Virus record (IMG/VR): IMGVR_UViG_3300036770_003758
Span: 38,211 to 102,210 of that record
DNA: 64,000 nucleotides
Reading direction: 5' to 3' (one strand)
From: a virus
Shown: piece by piece, positions 3-34,527 of the stretch
How the letters are laid out: the number at the start of each line of letters is the position of its first letter
How positions within the stretch are numbered: position 1 is the stretch's first letter
Position numbers and translations under genes: made by a program
Notes under the pieces: generated by a model
Told to the model about the DNA's origin: nothing
The model's input: only the letters and a program-made list of their open reading frames with translations
The model's database searches: none

Positions 3-623
3 CTCTACTCTAGGCGCTGGTCTATCTAACATATTAGTTACACCATCGTTAACTTGAGCAAATAAACCTAAGTAAAACGGTAAGCTGACGTGAGCTATAA
101 GGATGAATATAGACATAAACGTAGTACCATCTTGAATAGTAAGTAACGCTTTACCTATATTTCCTGATAAAAGAAAGTTTAAAAACGTGTAAGCTTCTAC
201 TTGAGTGCCTCTGCCAAGTACAATAAACCAAGTGTTAGCAAACGCTGGTAACACAGTCCATAGCCCAGACATAAGCACGTCAAGTAATTCTTTAGCGACA
301 ACCCAAATGTTTTGCTTTAACTTAATAGAAGCATATAATTCTTGGAATTGTCTATACAGTGTACTGCCAAAGACTACAGATATCGCTGCAATAGCCATGT
401 GCGAAGCTAATCTTACCCAATAATTCATATTGTGCAAGAATGCTACATCAGCAGCTATGAGACCTTCAAGTACAGCTAAGAATACTAATAGTGCTTCTTG
501 CAATACTACTTTACGATCGCGTATAGCATCGATGATATCTGTACCCTTAGACTTAGATTTGAAAATTGCATAGAGCATTGCTACACCAAGTGCAGCTACT
601 ATTGCAGGTACATACTGTGTCAT
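3..623 (-). CDS. Multi-pass membrane protein, truncated at window edge
   Basis: Hand translation from ATG at 623 (MTQYVPAIVAALGVAMLYAIF...) is open to the window start with several hydrophobic segments; absent from the ORF track because it has no stop in the window. Confidence 0.75.
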   Translation of the reverse strand, partial: MTQYVPAIVAALGVAMLYAIFKSKSKGTDIIDAIRDRKVVLQEALLVFLAVLEGLIAADVAFLHNMNYWVRLASHMAIAAISVVFGSTLYRQFQELYASIKLKQNIWVVAKELLDVLMSGLWTVLPAFANTWFIVLGRGTQVEAYTFLNFLLSGNIGKALLTIQDGTTFMSIFILIAHVSLPFYLGLFAQVNDGVTNMLDRPAPRVE

Positions 624-7851: not shown

Positions 7852-7895
7852 TTACGGTTTTACAACCATTTTCTTGACCACAAACTACACATTTC

Positions 7896-8111
7896 TCAAC
7901 TTGCTTCATCTTCTAAGTTTTTTATATGCCTGTTTAAATACCACTGTGCTTTTTTAAGATCTTCAATAGTCTTGTTTTCATCTTTGCGACCTGCACGTAG
8001 TATGTACTTAAGCACGTTACCTAAATGAAACCCTAAGTTTTTAGCTTCAATGATTTTAATAGGCTCGTAAATATCATCTTTACCGCCATAATGTTCTGGA
8101 TGATCTATCAT
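7896..8111 (-). CDS. DUF3310 family protein
   Basis: IDHPEHY...GFHLGNVLKYILRAGRK...EDLKKAQWYL. Confidence 0.9.
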   Translation of the reverse strand: MIDHPEHYGGKDDIYEPIKIIEAKNLGFHLGNVLKYILRAGRKDENKTIEDLKKAQWYLNRHIKNLEDEAS

Positions 8112-9799: not shown

Positions 9800-9813
9800 A
9801 ACGATAATATTTA

Positions 9814-10578
9814 TTAGTTAAGAAAATCCGTTTCTAACCCAAAATACTCAGATATCACCTTTAACGCTTCACCTGCGTCGTTGATCAAAGTACCATCGCC
9901 TTTGAACATACCGTAAGGTGCTCGTGCTGGAGTATCACCGAGTGGCTTAGTCCTGAACACATACTTAGGTTGTTGTGTCATAGGATCTGTTTGCACATCG
10001 GTGACTAAGATAATGTCCCAGAGCGAAGCTAAAGGTACATTCTTTTTCAACATTTGACCAGCACAAGATATTTCATGTTTGGTTCGCATAATGTAACCAT
10101 CCATGATTTCTGTTGCTGTCAAGTGAAAGTTAAAAATAATAAATAAATCTTCTCGGTTCAACTTAGGGTTAGCAGTAATTTTATCTAAGGCATCAAACAT
10201 TTTGTAAGTGTTGACACCTAGATCAGCCCAATCTTGGCGTTCAAGCTTAGACTTTTGCATTACTGTTTTACCCATCGTAAAGTTAGCGTCGTCAACTACA
10301 ATAACTTTAATGTCAGGTCTTTTTTCTGCTACGTAAATAAGTACGTCAGCAATCTTTTCTGGATCTATGGTGGCTAAATACCTACCACCTTCCATGATTT
10401 TTTTGTCAGCGTTGAATACATTGCGCCAGTTAGGTACTGGAATAAGCTTACCAGGACCAGCACAGGTAATGTACAACGTCTTGTCAACAGGTAAACCTTT
10501 AATCCCTAGCTCTTCGTTAGGAAATAACGATGTAGTTTTACCTGACGCTGGATAACCAGCAATTACAAATGATACCAT
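9814..10578 (-). CDS. AAA_24 / Sak4-like ATPase
   Basis: GYPASGKTTS Walker A, VIVVDD Walker B, ARAPYGMF. Confidence 0.8.
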   Translation of the reverse strand: MVSFVIAGYPASGKTTSLFPNEELGIKGLPVDKTLYITCAGPGKLIPVPNWRNVFNADKKIMEGGRYLATIDPEKIADVLIYVAEKRPDIKVIVVDDANFTMGKTVMQKSKLERQDWADLGVNTYKMFDALDKITANPKLNREDLFIIFNFHLTATEIMDGYIMRTKHEISCAGQMLKKNVPLASLWDIILVTDVQTDPMTQQPKYVFRTKPLGDTPARAPYGMFKGDGTLINDAGEALKVISEYFGLETDFLN

Positions 10579-15550: not shown

Positions 15551-15998
15551 GATACGTAACTACTTTTTCATTTTTAATAGTCCTTAACCATTTCTTGTCA
15601 GTTGCAATTTTTTCGTTTGCAAAATACAATACTGTTTCTGGTAGAACTTTCTCTTCCATGACCAGTACTCTAAACGCAGCGTCATAAGATTCTTGATTAG
15701 GTTTTTGATGAAAGTATTTAGTGCTTACACCGTCAAATTGTCCTTTAGACAATATTACGGAACGAATACTAGTTTTCACACCTAATTTTGAAAAATATTT
15801 CTGCCTGTTTACAACAACTTGTGCTACTGCTAGTTTACCGACCATAGGTTGATTACCAGCTTCGCAGTAAACAAGTCTTGCAAGTAGTTGTAAATCGTCA
15901 CAAGACTTTGCTGATACTGTAATTGTGTCACCGTATGCTACATAAATAGGTTCTGGAGACACGAACATTAACGTAAACCATAAACATAATTTCATCAT
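15495..15998 (-). CDS. Cell wall hydrolase, SleB/Hydrolase_2 family, with signal or anchor sequence
   Basis: LLARLVYCEAGNQ...GKLAVAQVVVNR...GQF...LYF...HTFY. Confidence 0.9.
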   Translation of the reverse strand: MMKLCLWFTLMFVSPEPIYVAYGDTITVSAKSCDDLQLLARLVYCEAGNQPMVGKLAVAQVVVNRQKYFSKLGVKTSIRSVILSKGQFDGVSTKYFHQKPNQESYDAAFRVLVMEEKVLPETVLYFANEKIATDKKWLRTIKNEKVVTYHDHTFYDSKHAIRLYATL

Positions 15999-16046
15999 TA
16001 TGTATTTGGTGAAACAATAACAAGGTACTTACACCTTGCCTTAGAC

Positions 16047-16088
16047 AAAAAAACTGTTTGAGTTAGGTGTTACCCTAACCCAAACAGT
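16047..16088 (-). terminator. Rho-independent terminator after the AAA ATPase
   Basis: ACTGTTTGAGTTAGG/CCTAACCCAAACAGT stem with a T-run on the minus strand. Confidence 0.7.
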
Positions 16089-16160
16089 ATTGATACCTAG
16101 TCGATTATAGGTAGGTACCCACTAACATATACGTAAAGTTAGTGAATTACCTCCAATAAA

Positions 16161-17594
16161 TCAACCCTTGTAATCCTCAGATGAATACTCAGCAATGATA
16201 CCAGGCGCAGCCTTCTGAAGAACAGTGTGCATAACCTTACCTGCGTAGTACTCAAGGCCAGCAGGTTTCTCCTGATCTTTGTGAATAAACGCATTGTGCT
16301 GCGTGATCTGAGAAATGTTTGCTTCGATGAAATCTTCGGTAAGTTCAATGTTGAGTTCTTCAGCAGCCAAGATCAGACGCTTGCACAACTGAGTAACTTC
16401 TGAGCCAGCGATGTTTTCTGGCAAACGATTTGCAAGCTTCTCGGTGTCGATGTTCTCAAAGCCAGCGATGTGATCCAAGTTGAGGTCCATGATGGTTTTA
16501 GACATCTCTTTGGTGCAATACGGAAACTCCACGATGAAGTCAATCCTGCCACTGCGACGGAAGCTCTGATGAATACGATCGATGTTGTTTGTAGTAAACA
16601 CAAAGATAACATCGGTATTCTTCAAGCTTTGGCCATCGATAGTATTAAGGATATCGTTCATATCCGAGTTACGCTCGCCACCGAGAACATCGTCAATGTC
16701 TTCTGCAAACACTGTAGAGTAACCATAGTTCTCCAAGTATGGAAGAAGAGTTTCGAGTTGGTTAGAGTTGTGCAGATAAAAGAATGTTCTACCAGCATCA
16801 ATAGATTCTTTACCAAGACGAATGGCAGTTTCTGTTTTACCCGTACCGTAAGGGCCATAGAACAACATCTTCTGAGACTTCTTGTTGTGAAGTTTCACAT
16901 ACGGAAGAATCAGGTTCGTAATCGTGACGTTGGTATCACGGCTAAGCACGATGTTCTTAGCTACCTTGAGGTTGATAGGGTGCATAAGCAAACCAGAACG
17001 CAATTGTTCAATAGTAACAGCTTTACCTTGCATCACCTTGTTGGTAGCAACTTCTTTGCCGATGTTGCTCAGGAATGCTTCTGCTGTTTTCTTGTACCTG
17101 TTCTTACACCGGATACCAATAGCACTTGGTGTCAACGTAAGGATAGCATCATCCCACACCTTGATAACCATAGAGCCGATGAACGCAGATTCTTCGATCT
17201 TGTTACCCTGGTCATCAAAACCAATAGGAATTTGCATGTACGTAGATTGCGTACGATCACCAGTGTAATCACGTGGCGATTCGATGAACTTACCAATAGT
17301 TTTGGTAAGCACGCGGTTTACGGTAAGCAAGAAATCGTTCAAGAAAAAGTTGGAGTAACTTTGTGCTACGGTAGTAATGCTTTCTTCGTGCTCATACTGC
17401 GCAATCAGTGTTTCTGATGCTTGTAAGTAGTCCATACCTCTTGGTAACAAGATGTGTGGATGGTCGTGATACAGAGGTTCTTTTGAGTTCTGATCAACTC
17501 TTGACTTGTAGCCGCTAGGCTTCACTGCGTTGAAGAGATCTTTGATAAACTCAAGACCTGCTGCAACTTGAACTTCTTTGACTTTTTTAGTCAT
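16161..17594 (-). CDS. Classical AAA ATPase (FtsH/CDC48/BCS1-like module) with an uncharacterised N-terminal region
   Basis: YGPYGTGKT, VFAEDID, FTTNNIDRI, RRSGRID second region of homology. Confidence 0.9.
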   Translation of the reverse strand: MTKKVKEVQVAAGLEFIKDLFNAVKPSGYKSRVDQNSKEPLYHDHPHILLPRGMDYLQASETLIAQYEHEESITTVAQSYSNFFLNDFLLTVNRVLTKTIGKFIESPRDYTGDRTQSTYMQIPIGFDDQGNKIEESAFIGSMVIKVWDDAILTLTPSAIGIRCKNRYKKTAEAFLSNIGKEVATNKVMQGKAVTIEQLRSGLLMHPINLKVAKNIVLSRDTNVTITNLILPYVKLHNKKSQKMLFYGPYGTGKTETAIRLGKESIDAGRTFFYLHNSNQLETLLPYLENYGYSTVFAEDIDDVLGGERNSDMNDILNTIDGQSLKNTDVIFVFTTNNIDRIHQSFRRSGRIDFIVEFPYCTKEMSKTIMDLNLDHIAGFENIDTEKLANRLPENIAGSEVTQLCKRLILAAEELNIELTEDFIEANISQITQHNAFIHKDQEKPAGLEYYAGKVMHTVLQKAAPGIIAEYSSEDYKG

Positions 17595-17628: not shown

Positions 17629-17730
17629 TTATTTGCGTGCGATAAGTACCGTTAACCCACCGGGTTGTTCGTACAAATCGCAGTTTTCATCTTTAGGGGT
17701 AATTAGCCAATGTAAATAGTACACTTGCAT
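17629..17730 (-). CDS. Array micro-ORF, last unit (33 aa)
   Basis: MQVYYLHWLITPKDENCDLYEQPGGLTVLIARK; ends about 35 bp before the AAA ATPase start. Confidence 0.65.
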   Translation of the reverse strand: MQVYYLHWLITPKDENCDLYEQPGGLTVLIARK

Positions 17731-18814
17731 ATCTTAGTATTAAAAAGTAAGAACTGTTTGTTAAATTGTTTTCTATTCTAAGGTGCACGTGCATGTGGTA
17801 ATAAAACGTTATAAGTTTCATGTTTTAAACTTTAACGTTGCCGTCATAGCACTGTGGTCAGACTTAGCGTAATTAAAAGAATCTCTTATCACGTGGTTTA
17901 AATCTAAACCAAGTATAAACTTAAGTTTGTTTAATTCCATTGCTGTAGTTTTTGAATGTAGAAAATAGAAGTCTTTACCAGCAAGAATACAGTTCGTCGT
18001 TTCATAGACCACCAGTATTTCTTATTCATGTGAATGCTGTATATATTCATCTATTGTAATTTTTGAACTAAACCGCAATAGTTATATTCGTATACTAAAC
18101 TACAGTGAAAAGTAGGATGTACCCACTGCATACTTTTAAATATCAACATATTAACTTATTTATTAATATAAATATTTTTGAAGCAGCGTCTATTTTAACT
18201 GCACTAGTGTAATATTGATACGGAAACATTGTTGAAATTCCTCTTATCAGCATACCGTGTGCTTAAGTGTTAACAAATACTTAGTTCTAACAGTATTTAC
18301 TTTAGCGATATGAAAGTTAAAGTGAAAATTCTGGCATTTGACAACTATATTAATTACTTGCATACCATGTATTTCAACAAGGCTTTTACATCGACTCTAT
18401 TTTCATTAGCGTTTCTGAAGCAAAAGTCTTGTGCCCTTGTTAATCTTAAATCAGATAGCTCCATTACATGTATTTTAATAAAGTTATGTAATTCTTTCTT
18501 TTGTAATGTTCAGCATACGTGGTTATCATCTCGTAGCTGTTACCAATTGCGTAGTCTAATATAATGTCGTATAAACGATCGTTTATTTCCATAACATGTA
18601 TTTTGCGATTAACCTAATGTCAACGTCAAGTTTTTCTGCAGTATCTTCAAATCGTATAAGTTTCTTTGAACCAAAAAAACTTACATTATACAATGTAGTA
18701 CACCTCATACAATAAATTTTAGACAGCAATCGTGAAAAACAAATGGCCAAGTAGAAGCTTTGTATAGTTCTTTACAACCAGCAGAGTAGTTTGTGAACCT
18801 AAACATTAACGTGG

Positions 18815-18943
18815 TCATTTGTATTTGTTTTTAGACTTACGTTGATCTTTTTTGTATTCTACGTAGGCCATCGTGTAAGCAAACACTAGAATAAAGCTTA
18901 CGATAAACAAAAACCCTAAAATTATTTTTGCGAAATTATCCAT
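18815..18943 (-). CDS. Array micro-ORF, single-TM peptide (42 aa)
   Basis: MDNFAKIILGFLFIVSFILVFAYTMAYVEYKKDQRKSKNKYK. Confidence 0.75.
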   Translation of the reverse strand: MDNFAKIILGFLFIVSFILVFAYTMAYVEYKKDQRKSKNKYK

Positions 18944-19031
18944 GGTTATATGTATTTAATTGTTAACAAATATTTAGTATTAAACATTTCTCCTGATATA
19001 AAAGTGTGTACAGGTTGTATGTGGTATCTGT

Positions 19032-19145
19032 TTAATCTTTCTGTTGGCATTGGTGAAATTTTACAATTAGTTGATAAGTATTTCTAACAGTAGGTGTGTA
19101 AAACATCATGGTGTATACGTGATATTTTATCTTTACTACAGGCAT
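19032..19145 (-). CDS. Array micro-ORF (37 aa)
   Basis: MPVVKIKYHVYTMMFYTPTVRNTYQLIVKFHQCQQKD; paralog of the adjacent unit. Confidence 0.75.
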   Translation of the reverse strand: MPVVKIKYHVYTMMFYTPTVRNTYQLIVKFHQCQQKD

Positions 19146-19234
19146 TTTACAATTAGTTGTTGATAAGCATTTATAATAGTAGGTACATGATAGGGCATGT
19201 TGTGCGCATGATACCATATTTTTATCACATGCAT
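19136..19234 (-). CDS. Array micro-ORF (32 aa)
   Basis: MHVIKIWYHAHNMPYHVPTIINAYQQLIVKCL. Confidence 0.75.
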   Translation of the reverse strand: MHVIKIWYHAHNMPYHVPTIINAYQQLIVKCL

Positions 19235-19859
19235 TTTACAATTATTTTTAAGTAGTGATCATAATAAGGTTTCCACATAAGCTTTCTACTTATACGAGCA
19301 CGTGTGTAATCTATTTCTTCACTCCACATATTTTGTAGTTATTAAAGTGTACGCGGCTGTATACGTAAATGTTCTATACAGTATATAAACATTATTCTTG
19401 TCAAATAAATAAAAAGATTTAGCTATATTCATTTTTGTTTAAATACGATTAAATAAATAGTATTTACATTGTCAAAATCTGCATCACAGTACTTTTCTTT
19501 TTTAGAGCAGTAGTAATACTGATAATAAAAATCGTCAACTTCAAATTCCATAGTTTACAGTTTATACGTTTGTGATACAATAAAGTGCAACTTAGTTCCA
19601 CCAAACTTGATTTTGTGAACAAAAACTTCTTGCATAATAAAGAATATGTTCATAGCTGTTTAATTAGCACAAGATTTGAACCTAAATTGTAGTTAAATGG
19701 TACAAAAAGTTGACCAGGTACGTGAAATTTAAACTCCATTATCATGTCAGTAGTATTTAAGCATTGTGATAAACGCGTGTAGATGATACTCTATCGTTAT
19801 AGCTGGATAGCATTTAGGCACGTAGAACGTATAGCTTTGTTCCATAGTAGATATTTTAC

Positions 19860-19982
19860 TTATCTGCATCGTATATGTTTTACTACAATTCTAAATCCAA
19901 TGTCTAGTGTAAGGTCTAATATATTTCTATTAGGAAACCTGAGTTCGTAATTAGCTTGTACAAGCGTGTTATAATACATCAT
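19860..19982 (-). CDS. Array micro-ORF (40 aa) ending in an FGE-like GFR strand
   Basis: MMYYNTLVQANYELRFPNRNILDLTLDIGFRIVVKHIRCR. Confidence 0.8.
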   Translation of the reverse strand: MMYYNTLVQANYELRFPNRNILDLTLDIGFRIVVKHIRCR

Positions 19983-20104
19983 TGCCGTAGAAATTTTAAC
20001 ATTAAAATAAACCTATCTCTTTCTGTCATATTGTTGTGTATGTATTGAATAACACTTTTACCCATACCTCTAAAATCTGGATATATAGCTGTTAAATACA
20101 TCAT
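19979..20104 (-). CDS. Array micro-ORF (41 aa)
   Basis: MMYLTAIYPDFRGMGKSVIQYIHNNMTERDRFILMLKFLRQ. Confidence 0.85.
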   Translation of the reverse strand: MMYLTAIYPDFRGMGKSVIQYIHNNMTERDRFILMLKFLRQ

Positions 20105-20223
20105 GGTATAAACTTTAGTGTAAAAATAAATCTGTCTATTTCAGATATATTCTCAGGTAAATATTGAATAATGTTCTTACCCATGTTTCTAAACTCTGGG
20201 TACATAGCAAGTAAAGACATCAT
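20101..20223 (-). CDS. Array micro-ORF (40 aa)
   Basis: MMSLLAMYPEFRNMGKNIIQYLPENISEIDRFIFTLKFIP; paralog of 19979-20104. Confidence 0.85.
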   Translation of the reverse strand: MMSLLAMYPEFRNMGKNIIQYLPENISEIDRFIFTLKFIP

Positions 20224-20338
20224 AGTATTTGTTTTAATGTTATACTAAACCCATGACATACTGGTTCACGTAAACCATGTAGATAAGTGTATTTTATTTT
20301 TGTGCGACTGTGATTAAATAAAATCGCAATTAAATTTC

Positions 20339-20470
20339 TCATGGTACGTGTTTTAAGATAAGTTGAAATCTATCATAAGATGTGATTCTTTCTTGTGTTT
20401 TAAGCGTTTTTTTCAAAGGTGTAAATTTTCTGCGATAAGTTTTAAGAAGCCAGAAGTGTATTGATTTCAT
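20339..20470 (-). CDS. Array micro-ORF (43 aa)
   Basis: MKSIHFWLLKTYRRKFTPLKKTLKTQERITSYDRFQLILKHVP. Confidence 0.8.
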   Translation of the reverse strand: MKSIHFWLLKTYRRKFTPLKKTLKTQERITSYDRFQLILKHVP

Positions 20471-20586
20471 TACATATGTTTTAAAATAAGTTGAAACCTA
20501 TCCTCGTACACAATATCAGCTACAAGATTTGCTTCTACCCTACTCTTGTAAGCTGCAGGATTGCGTACAAATATTACTGCTAACAT
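20470..20586 (-). CDS. Array micro-ORF (38 aa)
   Basis: MLAVIFVRNPAAYKSRVEANLVADIVYEDRFQLILKHM. Confidence 0.8.
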   Translation of the reverse strand: MLAVIFVRNPAAYKSRVEANLVADIVYEDRFQLILKHM

Positions 20587-20799
20587 GGTATTTGTTTTAA
20601 TGTAGCATACAATCTGCGTACAGTATTTCCTGGGTTACATAAGTTTATGCGCAAGTATCTGTAAAAATCAATTTGTATTTCAATATTCTTCATGATGTTT
20701 GTTTTAATATTACAGTAATTTTTATACGTTTTATATCTATCTCAATATTTCTTACAAAATCATCACAACGTGTACTTGAACAATCGATAATTACAACTG

Positions 20800-20904
20800 T
20801 CATTGTATATGTTTTAAAATAATAGAAAAGCCCTCGCGACCGCTGTATCCTAGTATCATTACAGTCAAATAAGCGGCTGTATATCCATATGAGTAAGTTT
20901 TCAT
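20800..20904 (-). CDS. Array micro-ORF (34 aa)
   Basis: MKTYSYGYTAAYLTVMILGYSGREGFSIILKHIQ. Confidence 0.8.
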   Translation of the reverse strand: MKTYSYGYTAAYLTVMILGYSGREGFSIILKHIQ

Positions 20905-21005
20905 GGTATCAACTTTAAAGTAATCGAAAAGGATTCATCTCCACTATGTCCTAGTTCGTGCACAGAAATACAACTGTATGTGTGTTCATATGCCCATGTG
21001 TTCAT
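20901..21005 (-). CDS. Array micro-ORF (34 aa)
   Basis: MNTWAYEHTYSCISVHELGHSGDESFSITLKLIP; paralog of 20800-20904. Confidence 0.8.
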   Translation of the reverse strand: MNTWAYEHTYSCISVHELGHSGDESFSITLKLIP

Positions 21006-21988
21006 AACATTAGTTTTAATATTATTGATAAATCATCTTGAATAAAATCGTACACTTCAGGTGCATTTATAATATGTGTTCCAAGAACTAAGTGTATCGT
21101 GTTCATAGTATAAACTTTATCATAACTAGAAAATCATCGTCAAAAAATGGTATTAAACCACGATCTTTGTCTACTAGTTTGCAAGAATATATTACGTATG
21201 TTGTTACGTCCATAATATTTTCATTGTAATTAAAATACTATCTTCTCCATAGAATATGTGATCTACAAGTGTTATGTATTTTGTGTCCACAATATTAGTT
21301 TTAACGTGATTATAAAATCATCGTTTAGGTTAGTAGAATATTTTAACACGCTCAATAAACACGAGTGCGCAGTAACTAATGTTTTTGTACATTCCATCTC
21401 AATACAATTAAGAAATCTTTATCTTCAAGTTTTGTTTTTTCTAGTCTATCCAGTAAATGCTTGTTATCGTGTGTACCAATAGGCATACATAGATCTAACA
21501 TTGTAAAATGTGCTATTTCCATCACATGTATTTAACCATAAAAATAAAATCATTCTTGACGTAGCTACAATTACTAAATGCTAAGTAATCTAAATACAGT
21601 TTACAATCTATACTGTGTACCCACATTGTTAAGTCTGTAAATTTCATAACATGTACTTATTTGCTAACTGTAAAATAACCTTAAGATGTGCACAGTTGAT
21701 ATAAGATGGAGTAAACACATCATTATCTAGTAAGATGTATTCCCAATCCCTATGTTCTACTTGCATAACATATACTTTTTTATAAGCCTAAAGTTAGGTT
21801 TAAAGAAAGCGTATTTAATAATATAAGGTTCAAGAAATGCATCTGTAATATAATTCCAACCAGTTTCTACTTTCACGATATCTGTTTTACAATAATTAAA
21901 GGTAATACAGTAGGCTTACTTATTTTGCGATCAGCATCATACATTGGATTTGATATAGGGAGGTTTACGTAAAACGTCATAAATGCTA

Positions 21989-22114
21989 TCATGGTACATA
22001 TTTTAATACGAATACAGTAATATCTATGTTAGGTGCATGTTTTGATTCAGTGTGAAATCTATAGATATCGTGAAGTCTATAACTATCAAAAGTGTAATCT
22101 AATGAAGCTTTCAT
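21989..22114 (-). CDS. Array micro-ORF (41 aa)
   Basis: MKASLDYTFDSYRLHDIYRFHTESKHAPNIDITVFVLKYVP. Confidence 0.8.
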   Translation of the reverse strand: MKASLDYTFDSYRLHDIYRFHTESKHAPNIDITVFVLKYVP

Positions 22115-22202
22115 ACAAGCGTTTTAAGAGTTACAATAAACTGTTGTGTCAAATACGAGTGTGAATAAAATCTCCAGTCTAGTTCGTATACTTTCTTTAC
22201 GC

Positions 22203-22310
22203 TCATTGTACGTATTTTATTACAAGTACAGCAATATCCCTATTGTGCGGATGTTTTAATTCAGGATGGATTTTATGACCACCTCTAGTGTAGTTTAATA
22301 AAGCTCTCAT
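22203..22310 (-). CDS. Array micro-ORF (35 aa)
   Basis: MRALLNYTRGGHKIHPELKHPHNRDIAVLVIKYVQ; paralog of 21989-22114. Confidence 0.8.
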   Translation of the reverse strand: MRALLNYTRGGHKIHPELKHPHNRDIAVLVIKYVQ

Positions 22311-22404
22311 ACAGATATTTTATTGATGGTTAAAAAAGATGTACCTGCGTAAGTTATTTTTAATTTTACTCTAGGGCTGTCGACCCATAAAATGTATAAC
22401 AACT

Positions 22405-22506
22405 TCATTCTGCATTTTTTATGATAGCAAATAAACATAATCCAGCTTTACCAGATCTTCTGTCATTTTTAAGGTTAGTGCCTACGACACTGTGTGTTAT
22501 AATCAT
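22405..22506 (-). CDS. Array micro-ORF (33 aa)
   Basis: MIITHSVVGTNLKNDRRSGKAGLCLFAIIKNAE. Confidence 0.8.
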   Translation of the reverse strand: MIITHSVVGTNLKNDRRSGKAGLCLFAIIKNAE

Positions 22507-22615
22507 TGTATGTGTTTTAAGTTAATTCTAAATCTAAGTACAGTAATGACATAGGTTTTAAGATCTATTTTAAGTACTATGTCAGGTTGCATAGTTTGTA
22601 CAAATCCTACAAATT

Positions 22616-22717
22616 TCATGGTTTGTATTTTAAAATAAAAAATAAAGAAAATCCTGCTTCACCAGATTTGTAATTGTGTTTAAAATTAGATTCTCCAATA
22701 CTTAAAATCGCTGTCAT
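22616..22717 (-). CDS. Array micro-ORF (33 aa)
   Basis: MTAILSIGESNFKHNYKSGEAGFSLFFILKYKP; paralog of 22405-22506. Confidence 0.8.
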   Translation of the reverse strand: MTAILSIGESNFKHNYKSGEAGFSLFFILKYKP

Positions 22718-22863
22718 GGTATGTGTTTTACAATAGCTCCAAAATTACTTGCGTTGTGATTCAAGTTTAAATAATCTACAGCTTCGTGTAAACGTATAGT
22801 CATGTAGTTATTTATGTACGGTGTAGTAACTGCTCTGTACATCATTAAGTCTATAAACTTCAT
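22714..22863 (-). CDS. Array micro-ORF (49 aa)
   Basis: MKFIDLMMYRAVTTPYINNYMTIRLHEAVDYLNLNHNASNFGAIVKHIP (3' part of track ORF 22714..22941). Confidence 0.75.
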   Translation of the reverse strand: MKFIDLMMYRAVTTPYINNYMTIRLHEAVDYLNLNHNASNFGAIVKHIP

Positions 22864-23213
22864 GATATAAGTTTTAATATAAACAAATGTCCACGACTTT
22901 GGTGAGATGCGTTCATTACGTAGTTTTTTGGAAGTGTCCAATCATTTACAGGTGGTACGTATGCAATTATGTGTTTTGTTTCCACGGTATTACTTTTAAT
23001 ATGATTAATGTTTTTATTGATATCATACTTGTTAGCAATCGTACGTTGTGAGAATATTTATCGTTTTTAAAAAGCGGTACTGTTCTCATAAAACTAGTTT
23101 TAACGTAAAATAAGCAGAATAAGGTGGTACATTATCTAGCTGTAATATCTCAAGTGCGTGGTCTGTTAAAGTACATACAAACTCGTCTTTAACAAGTGTC
23201 ATTTCAATAAACC

Positions 23214-23336
23214 TCATAGCTTATACTTTTGTACAATTATTACTTTCTTCTTAGTAGTTGTGTAGTTTAACGGCCCTTTCCATGTAGTAAAGTGCGTACG
23301 TACAGTATCTATAAATATTAAATCGACATTGTTCAC
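23214..23336 (-). CDS. Array micro-ORF (40 aa, GTG start)
   Basis: MNNVDLIFIDTVRTHFTTWKGPLNYTTTKKKVIIVQKYKL. Confidence 0.7.
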   Translation of the reverse strand: MNNVDLIFIDTVRTHFTTWKGPLNYTTTKKKVIIVQKYKL

Positions 23337-23472
23337 AGCTTATGTTTTTGCACAAAAAAAAGTAATTACGATCTTTAAAAGTGTGATCTACCACTATAGG
23401 TATTTCCGCAAAGTTGATTGTCAAAAGTGTAAAGCTGTTTTTGAATATTAATACTATATAAACATTGCTCAT
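23251..23472 (-). CDS. Array unit apparently frameshifted at a T8 run (73 aa as read)
   Basis: One extra T at 23354-23361 would give ...RNYFFFVQKHKL* ending at the usual junction. Confidence 0.6.
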   Translation of the reverse strand: MSNVYIVLIFKNSFTLLTINFAEIPIVVDHTFKDRNYFFLCKNISCEQCRFNIYRYCTYALYYMERAVKLHNY

Positions 23473-24027
23473 AGCTTATATTTTAATAAGATATTGTAAT
23501 GAAGCATGTAATTACCTCTACCTGTGAGATATACATCTATACCATTGTCACGTATATCTAACAATAATCTGAGTGTGTTCATTTTCTGTATTTTATTACA
23601 GCCCAGAAATGCATCAATAAACCTGTACCTATATGTCGATGTAATATTATATTACCATCTGTAGATTTAAAGTTTGATATCTCAAGTACTCCTAAGTAGT
23701 TCATGGCACCAGTTTTAATATCGATAAATAACAAAAATCAATTTTTAAAAATCTCTTTGATTTAGGGCACTCATCATGCAGTGAGTACATTATAAATAAG
23801 TACATAGATAGGTATGTGTTTTAATATTGCAAAAGCAGTTAGCTTAGATATAGATAATAATCTACTGTACACTTTAATATCAGCAAACAAAATTGTAGTT
23901 TTCATAACATGGTTTTAACTGTTACAGGTATGCTAATTTCATCAGGTAGTAATATATATGAATAAAGTTTATTTTGCTGCGTTATGTACAAAACTTCCAT
24001 TTTCATAGGTAGGTATATTAAACACAA

Positions 24028-24050
24028 ATGCCCTTGGTTTACAAGGGCAT
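24028..24050 (-). terminator. Hairpin directly upstream of the micro-ORF array
   Basis: ATGCCCTTG/CAAGGGCAT 9-bp stem followed by an imperfect T-tail (TTGTGTTT) on the minus strand. Confidence 0.55.
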
Positions 24051-24056
24051 CGTGGA

Positions 24057-24197
24057 TTATGCAATTTCTGCAAGTTCTGGTTCTAAACCTGGGTAGATTT
24101 CTCGTATCTTAATCTCAGCTTCATCTTTACTAGAAGCTTCAATATGTACGACACCAGCACCAATAAAAAAAGTAAAAATTTGCTTTTCTTCTTCCAT
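24057..24197 (-). CDS. Small acidic hypothetical protein (46 aa)
   Basis: MEEEKQIFTFFIGAGVVHIEASSKDEAEIKIREIYPGLEPELAEIA; below the ORF-track cutoff. Confidence 0.65.
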   Translation of the reverse strand: MEEEKQIFTFFIGAGVVHIEASSKDEAEIKIREIYPGLEPELAEIA

Positions 24198-24221
24198 AAT
24201 GTTTTGTTTATTAAATTAGAC

Positions 24222-24251
24222 AAAAAACCAGGGCTATATTTCAAGCCCTGG
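24222..24251 (-). terminator. Rho-independent terminator
   Basis: CCAGGGCT-TGAAATAT-AGCCCTGG-TTTTTT on the minus strand. Confidence 0.75.
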
Positions 24252-24277
24252 TACATAGTGAATCAAAGTATAAGGAG

Positions 24278-24442
24278 TCACTTGTTTTTCCAGATACGTT
24301 CTTTAGTCTTTTTTCCAGTAACAGTACACACTGTTTCTAAGTAAAACGCGCCGTGATTAGGTAAGCTTTCTTTAATAGCTTCGATGCTATCAGCTTCTAA
24401 GATGCGTTTACCTTTTTCGGTCACAATGTAATACTTTTTCAT
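24278..24442 (-). CDS. Small hypothetical protein (54 aa)
   Basis: MKKYYIVTEKGKRILEADSIEAIKESL...RIWKNK (3' part of the track ORF). Confidence 0.6.
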   Translation of the reverse strand: MKKYYIVTEKGKRILEADSIEAIKESLPNHGAFYLETVCTVTGKKTKERIWKNK

Positions 24443-24449
24443 GTTTGTG

Positions 24450-25280
24450 TCAATAGAAAAAGACATTAGACATGTACTCTTCTTTTGGAAACTTATCCTT
24501 CCAGATATCCTCGTCCATATAGGGCAAGTTATCTGGAACAGCCATTTTCCACACATTGCCTACAGTATCGTAAATACCGTACTTGTTTGGTTTTTTCTTC
24601 TTTACAGGTTGTGTTTTTCCGCCCATTTCTGCAGTAGTCCATGCAATCTCTTGAATATCTGTTCGAGTGTCCAAGTTCTCAGCATGATCTGCAGCAATGA
24701 TAGTCCATTCGGCTTTTGTAGGAAACAAGAATACAGCGTGACCTTTGATAGCTGGATTATACCAGAACCACCACTGACCATTGTATTCTTTCATGATATA
24801 CGGCATTGGTTTACCGTGCATATCGTTGAGCCAGTTGATGTATGCGATTGCGTTCAAGATCTCAAGATTAATCGCTGGGCGATCATCTCGACCATAGTTT
24901 TGATCATTAGCGAGATCTCGTCCTGTCATGTAACAGAACGCGTCAAACTGGTTGAACGTAACTACGGTATCTGCTGATGCTACAAGTGGAAAACATTCTG
25001 CTGGTAGTGGTACAAAAGTACCTAAGTCGATGTCCTTGTCGCTGATAGTCTTTTGCTCAAATGCACGTTGTGATGTAGCTACAGCAACTACAAACGGTTC
25101 TACAGGTTTTCTGTTGACCACATTGATAGTTGCAATAGCATTGCGGTGTACTTCTTCAAGCTCTGGTGTATTGAAATGTGCACGCATTTTAGGTAATGCT
25201 TGTGCATACCATTTACCAAAGTCTTTAGGTGAAAAAGAAGATTTCTGTTGAACTTGCTTCTTAAACTCTTCTACAGTCAT
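24450..25280 (-). CDS. FGE-sulfatase (C-type lectin fold) domain protein lacking the terminal RGG...GFR segment
   Basis: VVTFNQF, PAIN..NAIAYINWLN, FPTKAEW, IAW, TQPVKKKKPNKYGIYDTVGNVW; no RGG or GFR follows. Confidence 0.8.
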   Translation of the reverse strand: MTVEEFKKQVQQKSSFSPKDFGKWYAQALPKMRAHFNTPELEEVHRNAIATINVVNRKPVEPFVVAVATSQRAFEQKTISDKDIDLGTFVPLPAECFPLVASADTVVTFNQFDAFCYMTGRDLANDQNYGRDDRPAINLEILNAIAYINWLNDMHGKPMPYIMKEYNGQWWFWYNPAIKGHAVFLFPTKAEWTIIAADHAENLDTRTDIQEIAWTTAEMGGKTQPVKKKKPNKYGIYDTVGNVWKMAVPDNLPYMDEDIWKDKFPKEEYMSNVFFY

Positions 25281-25351: not shown

Positions 25352-25687
25352 TTAGTCCCAGGCATCGCTGATCGAATCCTCTCCTTCGCCAAGTGGGTTG
25401 TACTCAATCTGGATAGAAGAAATGTGAAGATCCGGCTCCAGTTCTACAGTTGGATGCACTGGATGCTTGAGAAAAGCTTTTTTACCTTCTGGTACCACAA
25501 AGGCAACAATGTTACCCCTATCCGAAGGAATAGGAGTAGGCATTGTAAACCCTACAGGTGCCTTGAAATTTGGTTTGAAATCATCGCGTACTACAATGTA
25601 GTCGCCTTCAAGGACGTGCTTTTCAGCACTCCCTGGCGTAACGGTTACGATCTCGTTCATGATAACGAATTTAAGATTGTTCAACAA
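25352..25687 (-). CDS. Small His-motif protein (partner of the DUF6745-like protein)
   Basis: EKHVLEG...LKHPVHPTVELEP...QIEYNP pattern; start probably MNEIVT. Confidence 0.5.
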   Translation of the reverse strand: MLNNLKFVIMNEIVTVTPGSAEKHVLEGDYIVVRDDFKPNFKAPVGFTMPTPIPSDRGNIVAFVVPEGKKAFLKHPVHPTVELEPDLHISSIQIEYNPLGEGEDSISDAWD

Positions 25688-26378
25688 TAAGTTTAAAGAA
25701 ATCCTCTTTGTTCATGTGGTACGGTGAATCTAACCACGGTTTACCTACATATTCTGGTTTAATCGTAGTGATAATAACTTCACCTTGACGGCGTATACAC
25801 TTAATGTGCTCAAGTGGTATCCTAGTTCTAAAAGCCCATGCTACTGCTGCTGCAGCATCATAGCTGCCTTTTTTGCAGAATTTTTCAGTGTGCGGCACCA
25901 TCAAGAAATACGGTGTACCAAAGTGTACGTCGAATACTTGTACAGCATACACGTGTGTTACCTTTTTACCGTTGATTGCAGGTTCACGCATCTCAGGGAA
26001 TACCTCTTTAATAGGCCTCCTTCTGAGAATGTAGTGGTTCGTAATCGTAGAGTCTTTCTGCTTAGTTTCTACAGTACGCTCATCTACAATTTCTGCATCA
26101 GCAAAGATAGTAGAAAACGGTAAAAACCTGAACAGTGCTTGGCGTTTAGCAGAAGCTTGTTCTGCCCGTAAATTAGGGAACAGTGACTTAAAATCAGAGA
26201 GTTCAGAAAACGTAATTGGTGTTACATCTTTCCAGATTTCTCTGATAAAATCATTGTTAAGTACAGGAAGATCTATGAACATGTCATCAAGATCTTCCTT
26301 GTACTTAGCCTTTAGTACCCTCAGTGCAAAGTCGAAAGGGAACAAAAAGTTCCCAATCTGAAGTACTTTCATCTTCAT
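25671..26378 (-). CDS. DUF6745-like protein
   Basis: AVQVFD...YFLMVP...AAAAVAWAF...IRRQGEV motifs. Confidence 0.5.
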   Translation of the reverse strand: MKMKVLQIGNFLFPFDFALRVLKAKYKEDLDDMFIDLPVLNNDFIREIWKDVTPITFSELSDFKSLFPNLRAEQASAKRQALFRFLPFSTIFADAEIVDERTVETKQKDSTITNHYILRRRPIKEVFPEMREPAINGKKVTHVYAVQVFDVHFGTPYFLMVPHTEKFCKKGSYDAAAAVAWAFRTRIPLEHIKCIRRQGEVIITTIKPEYVGKPWLDSPYHMNKEDFFKLIVEQS

Positions 26379-28190: not shown

Positions 28191-29222
28191 TTACAGATAT
28201 TCGTATTCAGGATGATAGATACGTGCAATGTGTTCTATATCCTCTAGTGTAATATTGTTGTCAATAAACCATTGCACACGTTCAACAGAGTCGTACGCAA
28301 ATATTTCATCACACCAGATTCTTTTTTTCTTATCGGTGTGTTGGTAATACGATAACAACGAAGGCATTGTAACTTGTATATTACAGCACATGCTTTCGAT
28401 TTCAAACGAATCTATAGCTGCGCTGTAAAGTACAGCTCTTTCTGTATCAGTAAGCTTAAGATTGCTTACAGTGTGTATAAACTTCTTGACATTTTTAGCT
28501 TCTTTTTTTATTTCAGATACAGATTCTTCTGAAACACCATAGATTTGTGCAATAGAGTTTGCTGTACTATACAGCAATCTATGCGTAGGATCATTTTGCA
28601 CAATCATACGATCCGTGAAATCGTCTTGAATTTTCAAGATATCGTATTTCTCGTCTTTTTCCACTTTACCGTTAAAATCTATTGGCGCAAGCGCTATGCC
28701 GTCATTAGAAGCAGTTTTAGCTAGGATTTCTAACATCTTAGCTAAGTTTCCTTCTTCACTTTGCATAACTTCTATTTTCATCCTATGCTTAAATAAAAGT
28801 AAGATGTATATCTCACTTTTACTGTAGGTTTCTTCGATAAATTTAACTGCGTATGAACGTCTACGGATTAACCCGTAACACAGCACAATCCAAGTATGCC
28901 ATGCAGCAAACTTATTTATGCGTATGTCTTCTGATAATAAATCTAAGTTTTCTACAATACTTTCTACATCGTAATGTTTTTTTACACGATTGATTGCGAA
29001 TTGTTTAATACGCGTGTGTGGTCGTGCAAAACACATTATCGCTGTTTTATCGTCGTTAAACATGCCGACAACGTCATTACTCAACATAAGTGCAAGTTCT
29101 CTTTCGTTGAATAAAGGAAAGTACTGAAGCATGTTTTTACCTTCAATTCTCTCTTTGAAGTTTTGTTCGTCAATACCACAAGCATCAAAAATACCTCTAG
29201 CTTCGTGATTATATGGTTCCAT
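28191..29222 (-). CDS. Hypothetical protein
   Basis: 343-aa ORF. Confidence 0.75.
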   Translation of the reverse strand: MEPYNHEARGIFDACGIDEQNFKERIEGKNMLQYFPLFNERELALMLSNDVVGMFNDDKTAIMCFARPHTRIKQFAINRVKKHYDVESIVENLDLLSEDIRINKFAAWHTWIVLCYGLIRRRSYAVKFIEETYSKSEIYILLLFKHRMKIEVMQSEEGNLAKMLEILAKTASNDGIALAPIDFNGKVEKDEKYDILKIQDDFTDRMIVQNDPTHRLLYSTANSIAQIYGVSEESVSEIKKEAKNVKKFIHTVSNLKLTDTERAVLYSAAIDSFEIESMCCNIQVTMPSLLSYYQHTDKKKRIWCDEIFAYDSVERVQWFIDNNITLEDIEHIARIYHPEYEYL

Positions 29223-29302: not shown

Positions 29303-30103
29303 TTACTTGATTCCTGTAAGCAGCGTAATCTCTGCTTCTTCAAGCTTTGCCGCATTCACAGAGTTGGTCAATACACTTGGCACAGTGTATGGATCTTCCA
29401 TGAGTGAAGTCAAAACTTCAAGTGAAGCGTCATTGCTGGCCATTTGCACAACTTGAGAAGGCAGTAAAATGTGAGCTTTGTCACCATTCTTCACTTTCTC
29501 AACGTACTGCTGGATGCTTTGGTTCTCGAGGCCATGAAGCTCAGATACGAGACGAATCTCAGTGTGCCTGTAATAAGGTGCACTGTTACCTTCCGGTGTC
29601 AGTACTTTTACAGGTTGCCTGCTTACAGGATTCAGAACAGGAGCCATGTTTACCCTGTACGGGTTTGGTGTGAAGCTCTCGATGACTACAATAGTAGTCT
29701 CGTCATTTTCTACGCCAAAGAACTCATCTGCAGAAAGAGCCTTGTCTACAACAGTGTAATCACCTTCGATGTTAGAATCTACAGAAGAGCCGTTGAGATT
29801 TTGGCTAACAAAGAAGATGTTTTTCCCGTCCCAGTTTGGGAACTTCTCGCGAATCACCTTCTCGTTTAAGGTAATGATTGCGGTGTTGGTAACCCAGGCA
29901 TTGATACCTAGAGCTACGCGGAGTAAAGAGTTTTGCGACGGTGCAGATGCTTTTGCGGGTGATTGCTGCACAATGGTGGCCCTGTAACCAGCTTTTCCTC
30001 CACGAGCGCGGTTGTCTTGGTAAAAAATAGCCCTGATATAGGGCTTAGTAGCTTTCCCAGTCTCAAGTAATTGATCGAGCTGAGTCTTTGCGGTTTGTGA
30101 CAT
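29303..30103 (-). CDS. Hypothetical protein
   Basis: 266-aa ORF. Confidence 0.8.
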   Translation of the reverse strand: MSQTAKTQLDQLLETGKATKPYIRAIFYQDNRARGGKAGYRATIVQQSPAKASAPSQNSLLRVALGINAWVTNTAIITLNEKVIREKFPNWDGKNIFFVSQNLNGSSVDSNIEGDYTVVDKALSADEFFGVENDETTIVVIESFTPNPYRVNMAPVLNPVSRQPVKVLTPEGNSAPYYRHTEIRLVSELHGLENQSIQQYVEKVKNGDKAHILLPSQVVQMASNDASLEVLTSLMEDPYTVPSVLTNSVNAAKLEEAEITLLTGIK

Positions 30104-30933: not shown

Positions 30934-31000
30934 TGGTCAAAACAGGAATCGAACCTGTATCTAGATGTTATCTAGGTTTTAGCCATTAAACTATTTGACC
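30934..31000 (-). tRNA. tRNA-like element with a shortened anticodon arm (pseudo-tRNA or tRNA mimic)
   Basis: Acceptor GGTCAAA/TTTGACC, D-arm GTTT-AATGGCTA-AAAC, T-arm ACAGG-TTCGATT-CCTGT; only 17 nt between the D and T arms. Confidence 0.65.
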
Positions 31001-33825: not shown

Positions 33826-34527
33826 TTACTTTGTAAGTGCTAAACGAAATCCACTGCCACCTGAAGAAAGAACAACAAGGCGAGACGCAATGCGGCAGTT
33901 TATGATATTGGCACTATAAGCACCACCACGTTCTGCCCGAAGAGGAGTTCCATCATATTCGTAATAACCTACTATGTCTTCGCACCATTCCCTTACATTA
34001 CCAGTCATATCGTAAAGCCCCAACTCATTGGGCTTCTTCTGCCCCACTGGATGCACTGTATTTCCAGAATTACCTTTATACCACGCAACTTCATGCAAGT
34101 TATTACTGCCTGCGTACCTGTATCCTTTGGTTTTTAAACCGCCACGGGCTGCAAACTCCCACTCTGCTTCCGTTGGCAAGCGATATTTCAGACCTGTTTT
34201 TTTGTTTATCTTAGCCAGAAACTTTTCAATCTTATAACAGTCTGCATATTGTACTGGACAATTGTCGCAGGTTCTCAAATACTTTGCTTTGTTTTTTATA
34301 ACTTCCCGCCACTGTTTCTGCGTAACCGGATACTTGCTAATATAGAAATCCGATACCGTTACTTGGTGTACAGGCTTTGTGTCCCTATCCCAATACACAA
34401 AACTTCTGTAATTACGTTCTCCTGGGAAAACGTTGATTCCCTGTTCTGAAGTGCGGCCCATCATTAATGTACCGCCTTTGACAAGAACCATGTTATTAAA
34501 AATTTCTTCTAAGATTTCTTCTAGCAT
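33826..34527 (-). CDS. Full-length FGE-sulfatase (SUMF1/C-type lectin fold) domain protein
   Basis: MVLVKGGTLMMG, YPVTQKQW, YRLPTEAEWEFAARGG, PNELGLYDMTGNVREW, RGG, GFRLA. Confidence 0.92.
   Translation of the reverse strand: MLEEILEEIFNNMVLVKGGTLMMGRTSEQGINVFPGERNYRSFVYWDRDTKPVHQVTVSDFYISKYPVTQKQWREVIKNKAKYLRTCDNCPVQYADCYKIEKFLAKINKKTGLKYRLPTEAEWEFAARGGLKTKGYRYAGSNNLHEVAWYKGNSGNTVHPVGQKKPNELGLYDMTGNVREWCEDIVGYYEYDGTPLRAERGGAYSANIINCRIASRLVVLSSGGSGFRLALTK

What the first reader, a model, noticed from the sequence alone, without database searches (positions are those of the whole stretch)
19860..25280. Split C-type-lectin hypothesis: array peptides may complete a truncated FGE-domain scaffold in trans
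Seen: gene 24450-25280, about 440 bp upstream of the array, follows FGE-sulfatase motifs up to GIYDTVGNVW but lacks the final RGG...GFRL segment. In the intact paralog (33826-34527) that segment, LRAERGG...SGFRLALTK, is about 38 aa, the size of an array unit. Several units end in GFR-like strands (IGFRIVVKH 19982, GFSITLKQ 20342, GFSIILKH 20904, RFRINLKH 22619, NFRLIKK 21876, GFSLFFILK 22717), and one has an early RGG (22310). Established: in FGE-type CLec targets of diversity-generating retroelements this terminal segment is the ligand-binding variable region and supplies the last beta-strand of the fold. Inference: one constant scaffold plus about 58 swappable variable segments would give combinatorial binding diversity without reverse transcription.
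Basis: inference. Interest (0 to 1): 0.92.

Follow-up and report, generated by a model that had tools for sequence, protein, structure and literature searches.

The report
Split phage lectin with 57 tail mini-genes
A crAss-like phage encodes a lectin-fold protein that lacks its last strands, followed by 57 tiny chained genes whose conserved ends are predicted to supply the missing strand, so one protein body may carry many different tips; binding is predicted, not measured.

Summary
Gene 24450-25280 (-) is an FGE/C-type-lectin-fold protein without the terminal RGG...GFR segment. An array of 57 (not 58) translationally coupled micro-ORFs lies at 24006-17629 (-).

- The scaffold is not a broken copy. 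It belongs to a conserved "short-tail" subfamily.
- That subfamily sits next to mini-gene arrays in five lineages: window, L001, L003/L119, L085, L206.
- In L206 the same kind of scaffold is followed, with an ATGA overlap, by a mini-gene that is a clear FGE tail (E 7e-9). Its paralogs grade from that form into degenerate ones.
- I found no array without the scaffold.
- A complex prediction docks the conserved C-terminal 15 residues of one unit between scaffold strands 98-102 and 179-185. The score was ipSAE 0.86, best control 0.01.

Weak points:
- The window's units show no significant sequence similarity to FGE tails (P 0.36).
- Only one unit was docked, and no scrambled control was run.
- The hypervariable part folds with low confidence.
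- Nothing was measured.

No reverse transcriptase is present, so no DGR is involved. I found no paper describing this architecture. This scan has noted similar "split phage lectins" on other DNA before; those are unchecked AI notes.

The parts
24450..25280 (-). Scaffold: a 276-aa 'short-tail' FGE/C-type-lectin-fold protein. It has an N-terminal helical bundle (residues 1-54) and an FGE-like core (residues ~83-264). It ends where RV-RGGSW would begin.
   Evidence: Pfam PF03781 at profile positions 83-188/255. AF2 pLDDT 95.1. TvpA 2y3c Z 13.0, model residues 83..255. Homologs of the same length with a conserved tail.
24278..24442 (-). Small ORF of 54 aa between the scaffold and the array. Function unknown. 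Conserved in L001.
24227..24252 (-). Terminator-like hairpin followed by a T run.
24057..24197 (-). Small ORF of 46 aa. Function unknown. Conserved in L001.
24027..24051 (-). Terminator-like hairpin just upstream of the first unit.
17629..24006 (-). Array of 57 translationally coupled micro-ORFs of 28-73 aa. The first 20-30 residues are hypervariable. The C-terminus is the conserved motif F-x-h-x-h-K-x-h.
   Evidence: Kept in L001 with dN/dS about 0.30. Whole-unit indels in other samples.
20104..20223 (-). Unit u34 (40 aa), the one used for docking. Its residues 26-40 form the predicted interface.
16161..17594 (-). Classical AAA ATPase of 477 aa, starting 34 bp after the last unit. It is linked to the array in this lineage and in L003 only.
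   Evidence: Pfam AAA and PHROG 10440. Absent from G001, the complete record that holds L085. Homologs in L007-L009 have no array upstream.
16053..16088 (-). Strong terminator-like hairpin after the ATPase gene.
33826..34527 (-). Canonical full-length FGE-sulfatase paralog (233 aa) with RGG...GFRL. It served as a comparator and is probably not part of the system.
   Evidence: Present in the window and L001 lineage only.

Best explanation
This is a lectin-fold (FGE-type C-type-lectin) protein split into two kinds of gene.

One constant scaffold gene (24450-25280) ends just before the terminal RGG...GFR segment. In DGR variable proteins such as TvpA, that segment is the variable, ligand-facing part and also supplies the last beta-strand.

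The 57 micro-ORFs downstream are highly diverged descendants of that segment. Each keeps only a C-terminal anchor strand (F-x-h-x-h-K). That strand is predicted to insert between scaffold strands 98-102 and 179-185, the place of the canonical last strand. Each unit carries a different 20-30-residue N-terminal part.

The genome would therefore make one body with up to 57 alternative tips, without reverse transcription or recombination.

Shown:
- The ORFs are real and under purifying selection.
- The scaffold lacks the segment.
- Scaffold subfamily and arrays occur together in five lineages.
- Canonical tails follow the same scaffold subfamily in L206.

Predicted: the docking.

Inferred:
- The window's units descend from FGE tails.
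- One peptide binds per scaffold.
- The complexes bind varied targets. These are probably inside the infected cell, because the genes lie in the replication arm and the scaffold has no signal peptide.
For: - **Coding.** The strict detector links 51 units, against at most 5 in 200 shuffles. The chain is kept in L001, and dN/dS is 0.30. Third codon positions vary most.
- **Missing segment.**
- **Conserved subfamily.** The scaffold has a conserved tail, PPxMTxExWxxxFPxxxYL, and folds with pLDDT 95.
- **Co-occurrence.** The window, L001/L002, L003/L119, L085 (28% identity, about 55 units) and L206 all have the short-tail scaffold next to mini-gene arrays. 79 of 80 metagenome loci and about 30 viral loci with other FGE forms have no such array. 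The five ATPase-bearing records G004-G008, three of which I checked and found array-less, lack the scaffold.
- **The L206 link.** Mini-gene 7733-7873 overlaps the scaffold's stop codon and matches the canonical FGE tail at E 7e-9. The next one matches at E 0.022. Fifteen paralogs grade from GFRLIL through SIRLIL to SSRLIL.
- **Docking.** ipSAE 0.86 (runs 0.88, 0.85, 0.86), best of 3 controls 0.01. This mark was reached by 58 of 80 solved complexes and 2 of 110 mismatched pairs. The runs agree in at least 52% of contacts. The partner's pLDDT is 44-51. The interface is peptide residues 26-40 with scaffold residues 97-103, 135-141, 178-187 and 236-244.
- **Other split lectins.** Clear tail mini-genes occur in L096, L098 and L101.
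Against: - The window's unit profile is not significantly similar to FGE tails (hhalign P 0.36). It is also not similar to the L085 units (P 0.28) or the L206 units (P 0.19). Descent therefore rests on position, size, motif shape and a graded series seen in other genomes.
- Co-occurrence is partly shared synteny among related crAss-like phages, so the lineages are not fully independent.
- The fold predictor may complete a familiar fold with any suitable hydrophobic strand. Controls were unrelated proteins, not scrambled peptides. Only one of 57 units was tried, with my own alignments.
- The scaffold's own tail folds confidently, and I could not inspect the coordinates to see where it lies.
- Two terminator-like hairpins separate the scaffold gene from the array, so the two may be expressed differently.
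- Part of the conserved peptide end also lies just upstream of the next start codon. It could be partly constrained at the RNA level.
Confidence: 0.6

Rival explanations
1. The micro-ORFs are independent small proteins, for example host-takeover or anti-defence peptides. They stand next to the FGE-like gene only through inherited gene order. Their conserved end serves another purpose, such as self-association, membrane contact, or the start signal of the next ORF.
For: No significant sequence link to FGE tails. Terminator-like sites lie between the scaffold gene and the array. The array-bearing phages share wider synteny: the neighbouring genes in L085 resemble the window's 25352-26378 and 29303-30103. 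The conserved end overlaps the next start region.
Against: The hydrophobic alternation is kept through different codons, and in L085 through a different motif. The docking score is far above the controls. Canonical tails follow the same scaffold subfamily in L206. No array was found without the scaffold.
Confidence: 0.2
2. The peptides do bind the scaffold, but as clients rather than as parts of a binder. Their C-terminal motif would be a tag read by the lectin-fold protein. The adjacent AAA ATPase would then remodel, load or destroy them. The variable parts would act elsewhere.
For: Predicted binding goes through the conserved tag only, and the variable part has low confidence. A classical AAA ATPase lies 34 bp downstream with no terminator between it and the array, in the window and in L003.
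Against: L085's complete genome has the scaffold and about 55 units but no homolog of the ATPase. ATPase homologs occur without arrays. The docking site equals the canonical last-strand position. In L206 the partner is plainly the missing fold segment.
Confidence: 0.12
3. The array is a decaying relic of former tail mini-genes and no longer has a function.
For: The RGG motif is lost. Units are irregular towards the ATPase end, and one non-family unit has been inserted. Whole-unit gain and loss are frequent.
Against: 57 frames stay open in the window and 51 in L001. dN/dS is 0.30, coupling is kept, and the C-terminal motif is kept.
Confidence: 0.05
4. The region is a non-coding repeat array, either regulatory or RNA.
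For: A short junction motif recurs every 100-130 bp.
Against: Unit periods all equal 2 mod 3, as chained frames require. Chance gives chains of at most 5 units. Changes are excess-synonymous. There is no Rfam match and no tandem repeat at the DNA level.
Confidence: 0.01

Closest known systems
DGR variable proteins of the FGE-type C-type-lectin fold (Treponema denticola TvpA, PDB 2Y3C; Bordetella phage Mtd)
   Same: It is the best structural match for the scaffold: Z 13.0, rmsd 3.1, 165 residues aligned. In these proteins the C-terminal segment carries the variability and the last strand (established knowledge). The piece missing from the scaffold is that segment.
   Different: No reverse transcriptase is present in this phage or in four related records. 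There is no adenine bias. Diversity is stored as 57 separate genes, and the segment would be supplied as a separate polypeptide.
Split FGE/lectin scaffolds with canonical tail mini-genes in other phages
   Same: A scaffold gene lacks RGG...GFR and is followed by chained mini-genes of 41-57 aa. L206 uses the same short-tail scaffold subfamily.
   Different: In those phages the mini-genes are recognisable FGE tails (E 1e-5 to 1e-15) and number 2-17 per locus. Here there are 57, only the last strand is recognisable as a motif, and sequence homology cannot be shown.
Donor-strand complementation in chaperone-usher pili (my own knowledge, not tested here)
   Same: It works alike: a fold that lacks its last beta-strand is completed by a strand from another polypeptide.
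   Different: That case has an Ig-like fold, serves fibre assembly, and has no library of alternative strands.
Prochlorosin-type peptide libraries: many hypervariable precursors served by one enzyme (my own knowledge, not tested here)
   Same: Dozens of small genes share a short conserved recognition part and a hypervariable part, and all are served by a single protein.
   Different: There the conserved part is an N-terminal leader and the protein is a modifying enzyme. Here the conserved part is C-terminal, and the scaffold lacks the segment that holds FGE's catalytic cysteines.

Membership tests
FGE-sulfatase domain (PF03781) | Profile match above Pfam's gathering score | tested here: met
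   41 bits against a cut-off of 23.3, covering profile positions 83-188 only. The fold is confirmed by TvpA, CarF, PvdO and FGE matches with Z 8-13.
FGE-sulfatase domain (PF03781) | Complete domain including the C-terminal RGG...GFR segment | tested here: not met
   Profile positions 189-255 are unmatched. Structural alignments end at FGE residue 325 and TvpA residue 287.
Formylglycine-generating enzyme (catalytic) | The two catalytic cysteines, which lie in the C-terminal segment (their position is from my own knowledge of human FGE) | tested here: not met
   The segment that holds them is absent from the scaffold.
Diversity-generating retroelement target | Reverse transcriptase in the same genome | tested here: not met
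   No PF00078 match in G000, which is 92% complete. None in G001 (100% complete), G002, G003 or G009.
Diversity-generating retroelement target | Adenine-specific differences between copies | tested here: not met
   Of 575 differences between orthologous units, 280 involve A and 316 involve T. Transitions number 381 and transversions 194. No template repeat was searched for.
FGE-tail mini-genes (split lectin) | Sequence match of the units to the canonical RGG...GFR tail | tested here: inconclusive
   hhalign gave P 0.36 for the window's units. Only one unit (19982-19860) scored above shuffled controls. The values were P 0.065 for L085 and P 0.01 for L206, where single units reach E 7e-9.
FGE-tail mini-genes (split lectin) | Chained small genes next to a scaffold gene that lacks the tail | tested here: met
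FGE-tail mini-genes (split lectin) | Unit binds the scaffold at the position of the last strand | tested here: inconclusive
   This is predicted only: ipSAE 0.86, best control 0.01, with 58 of 80 solved complexes and 2 of 110 mismatched pairs reaching the mark. Peptide residues 35-39 lie against scaffold residues 98-102 and 178-185. That this equals the canonical strand position follows from lectin-fold topology (my own knowledge). I did not inspect coordinates.
Crassvirales | Crass-type major capsid protein | tested here: met
   PF23898 at 110 bits for the product of 49118-50716. Terminase and portal PHROGs also match.
Classical AAA ATPase | Pfam AAA domain | tested here: met
   PF00004 at 51 bits, residues 243-359 of the product of 16161-17594.

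The most novel reading that the evidence does not exclude
A phage carries a hard-wired repertoire of binders. One lectin-fold body is completed in trans by any of 57 separately translated anchor-strand peptides. This would give dozens of specificities at once, without mutagenesis or recombination. The repertoire turns over through gain and loss of whole units, and it may be used inside the infected cell against varied host proteins.
Probability: 0.35. Interest if true: 0.92.

Novelty: categorically new. Interest (0 to 1): 0.85.

Why it matters
Known ways to diversify a binding protein act on one gene: DGR mutagenesis, cassette recombination or phase variation. This would be a different principle. 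A fold is split at the boundary of its variable segment. The variants are kept as a library of mini-genes and assembled at the protein level.

If true, three things follow:
- It explains large blocks of unannotated micro-ORFs in environmental crAss-like and other phages.
- It gives a natural scaffold-plus-peptide display system.
- It makes the question of what these phages recognise directly testable.

The window is the largest and most diverged case I saw. It shows how far such tails can drift while keeping only the anchor strand.

Tried and rejected
- DNA search of the array against GenBank phages found no match.
- tblastn of the scaffold and of P0086 against GenBank phages found no match.
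The contigs of most short-tail homologs could therefore not be read.
- The first AF2 run, with a 5-row alignment, was useless at pLDDT 40.
- A junction DNA pattern hit only the window and its close relative and missed L003. I ran no further search on it.
- Tandem Repeats Finder and Rfam found nothing in the array.
- The genome-contig scan with P0086 returned only canonical FGE proteins.
- The viral scan with P0060 found nothing. The scan with P0215 found only canonical forms.
- Profiles of the window, L085 and L206 units do not match each other significantly.
- No RNA holder was listed among public runs, so expression is untested.
- The idea that the AAA ATPase is an obligate partner was rejected.
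- Involvement of a DGR was rejected.
- I considered a test of covariation between the invariant peptide Lys and scaffold residues across lineages.


Full report
**Setting.** The window is bases 38211-102210 of a 102,210-bp IMG/VR virus record, estimated 92% complete. It is a crAss-like phage. It has a Crass-type major capsid protein (PF23898), a terminase and a portal on the plus strand. On the minus strand it has DNA polymerase, helicases and primase-like genes. Public runs that hold the stretch come from subsurface, freshwater, lagoon and drinking-water metagenomes.

**The array.** From 24006 down to 17629 on the minus strand I could chain 57 ORFs of 28-73 aa.
- 30 of the 56 junctions are 4-base ATGA overlaps. 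Nearly all the others overlap by 1-38 bases or abut.
- A stricter detector links 51 of the units. 200 dinucleotide-preserving shuffles of the same DNA gave a mean of 2.3 and a maximum of 5.
- There is no tandem repeat at the DNA level and no Rfam match.
- The units share a C-terminal motif, often Asp at -7, then F-x-h-x-h-K-x-h. Their first 20-30 residues are hypervariable (window part of the output).
- The rest of the genome has no second array.

**Evidence that the units are translated and under selection.**
- A relative, IMGVR_UViG_3300037502_002220 (L001/L002), has an ATPase 93% identical and a scaffold 96% identical. It keeps the chain, with 51 units. Some units are lost, gained or replaced.
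- Over 39 reciprocal-best pairs dN/dS is 0.30. These pairs were chosen at 50% identity or more, which biases the value downward.
- Differences are mostly transitions. They are commonest at third codon positions and show no adenine bias.
- Contigs from other studies skip whole units. The skip 20084->20218 appears in three runs, and 20347->20476 in one.

**The scaffold.**
- The 276-aa product of 24450-25280 matches Pfam FGE-sulfatase at profile positions 83-188 of 255. The paralog at 33826-34527 covers positions 4-254.
- It is not a recent truncation. Homologs at 55-59% identity have the same length.
- A profile search of 1.8 billion representatives found a wider "short-tail" subfamily at 26-37% identity. 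After GNVWK, its members have a conserved ~35-residue tail, PPxMTxExWxxxFPxxxYL, in place of the linker plus RGG...GFR.
- With a 67-row alignment AF2 gives pLDDT 95.1 and pTM 0.90, and the tail scores 93-97.
- The best structural matches are TvpA (2y3c, Z 13.0, rmsd 3.1, 165 aligned, model 83..255 against chain 61..287), CarF, PvdO, PorK and FGE (Z 8.8, model 85..256 against 87..325).
- The fold is therefore FGE/C-type-lectin. The last ~45 residues of the canonical fold have no counterpart. In TvpA those residues are the DGR-variable region (established knowledge).

**Between scaffold and array.** The 443 bp hold two small conserved ORFs (54 and 46 aa) and two terminator-like hairpins. After the array comes a classical AAA ATPase (16161-17594), followed by a strong terminator-like hairpin.

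**Co-occurrence.**
- L003/L119 have a scaffold 59% identical. They carry about 33 units of 36-61 aa ending in ..LKH.., placed between the scaffold and the ATPase.
- The window's unit profile finds these units as its best non-self hits (E 0.016-0.14 among 26,116 small ORFs).
- L085 lies in a complete 102,932-bp record with terminal repeats. Its scaffold is 28% identical. About 55 chained units of 34-53 aa follow directly. They show the pattern M-K/E-L..., G-G/S-x-Y near residue 10, and S-T-x-L-I-L-I at the end.
- That L085 genome has no homolog of the ATPase.
- Three records checked (L007-L009) have ATPase homologs at 37-39% identity and no array upstream. Five ATPase-bearing records, including these three, have no short-tail scaffold.
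- About 30 viral loci and 79 of 80 metagenome loci with other FGE forms have no such array.
- The link between scaffold and array is therefore wider than the link between ATPase and array. These phages share broader gene order, so the lineages are not fully independent.

**The link to canonical tails.**
- L206 (IMGVR_UViG_3300009868_000002, 103,555 bp) holds P0053, a short-tail scaffold with the same conserved tail.
- The scaffold's stop codon overlaps the start of a 46-aa mini-gene containing RMLRGGSW ... VGFRLIY. This mini-gene matches a canonical FGE-tail HMM at E 7e-9. The next mini-gene matches at E 0.022.
- Fifteen more mini-genes, in three clusters, grade from GFRLIL through SIRLIL to SSRLIL and lose the RGG motif.
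- The short-tail scaffold thus ends where RV-RGGSW would begin, and the next genes supply what follows.
- Three other loci (L096, L098, L101) have differently truncated FGE scaffolds with 2-8 clear tail mini-genes (E 1e-5 to 1e-15). Those in L096 end in GFRIVVKRRK, a shape close to the window's GFRIVVKH and GFSITLKQ ends.
- No reverse transcriptase is found in any of these crAss-size records.

**Sequence similarity of the window's units to FGE tails.** It is not significant.
- With an HMM built from 210 canonical tails, the units score like shuffled controls, except the unit at 19982-19860 (6.9 bits).
- L085's units score slightly above controls: 18 of 52 score above 0 bits, against 5-7 in the shuffles. 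Their GG aligns on RGG.
- Profile-profile P values against the canonical tails are 0.36 (window), 0.065 (L085) and 0.01 (L206).

**Docking.** I sent the scaffold (alignment A6) and unit u34 (window:20104-20223:-, alignment A7 of 55 units) to the complex predictor.
- The verdict was that the model supports binding but does not show it.
- The score was ipSAE 0.86 (runs 0.88, 0.85, 0.86), and the best of 3 controls was 0.01.
- The mark was reached by 58 of 80 solved complexes and 2 of 110 mismatched pairs. These counts hold only roughly, because my own alignments were used.
- The runs agree in at least 52% of contacts. The partner's pLDDT is 44-51, so the partner's own fold is uncertain.
- The confident interface is peptide residues 26-40, the conserved end, against scaffold residues 97-103, 135-141, 178-187 and 236-244.
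- The tightest pairs are peptide 35-39 with scaffold 98-102 and 178-185.
- Residues 180-187 are the counterpart of the canonical 'YRLP' strand. In the lectin fold that strand pairs with the last strand (my own knowledge).
- The scaffold's own tail (245-276) is not listed at the interface.
- Caveats: a predictor can complete a familiar fold from memory. The controls were unrelated proteins, not scrambled units. One unit was tested.

**Reading.** The most likely account (0.6) is a split lectin-fold protein with a large library of anchor-strand mini-proteins. In this lineage the mini-proteins have diverged until only the last strand is recognisable. The main rival (0.2) is that they are independent micro-proteins kept beside the scaffold by descent. 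A client/tag model involving the ATPase (0.12) is weakened by L085.

**What is known.** I found no paper describing such an architecture. Earlier notes of this scan report similar "split phage lectins" in at least 11 other genomes. I treated these as leads and checked the phenomenon on my own loci (L096, L098, L101, L206).

Noticed in passing
window 30934-31000 (-): Rfam calls a tRNA here (50.3 bits, E 8e-8). ARAGORN reports no tRNA in the whole window.
   Followed up: no
window 18815-18943 (-): Unit 46 of the chain is not a family member. It is a 42-aa protein with a hydrophobic, membrane-like stretch and a Lys-rich end, inserted inside the array. It is absent from the L001 array.
   Followed up: partly
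window 23251-23472 (-): There is one double-length unit (73 aa), followed by the only long gap (33 bp). In L001 the same place holds three ORFs of 46, 38 and 71 aa. The 71-aa ORF does not look like a unit.
   Followed up: partly
window 20084-20218 and 20347-20476: Contigs from other metagenome studies join across exactly one unit each, so natural populations differ by whole units.
   Followed up: partly
L206:6238-6515, 7733-8016, 9799-10370, 15760-16964: In this related 103.5-kb phage the tail mini-genes lie in four clusters, one just upstream and three downstream of the scaffold. They are interleaved with ordinary genes rather than forming one block.
   Followed up: partly
L096:8383-10268; L098:1643-3263; L101:7540-8436: Three unrelated viral contigs (GC 61%, 52% and 34%) carry other truncated FGE scaffolds with clear RGG...GFR mini-genes. 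In L098 each ORF holds two tails. In L096 the scaffold ORF itself begins with a tail unit.
   Followed up: partly
window 33826-34527 (-): A full canonical FGE-sulfatase protein is also encoded, in this lineage and L001 only. Its role, and whether it relates to the split system, is unknown.
   Followed up: partly
window 16161-17594 (-) and L007-L082: The AAA ATPase family (PHROG 10440, function unknown) is widespread in large viral contigs that have no arrays. Its N-terminal 240 residues have no Pfam match.
   Followed up: partly
window 28191-29222 (-): A 343-aa protein has a weak sigma-70 region-4-like match (E 0.005, below Pfam's cut-off). It may be a phage transcription factor.
   Followed up: no
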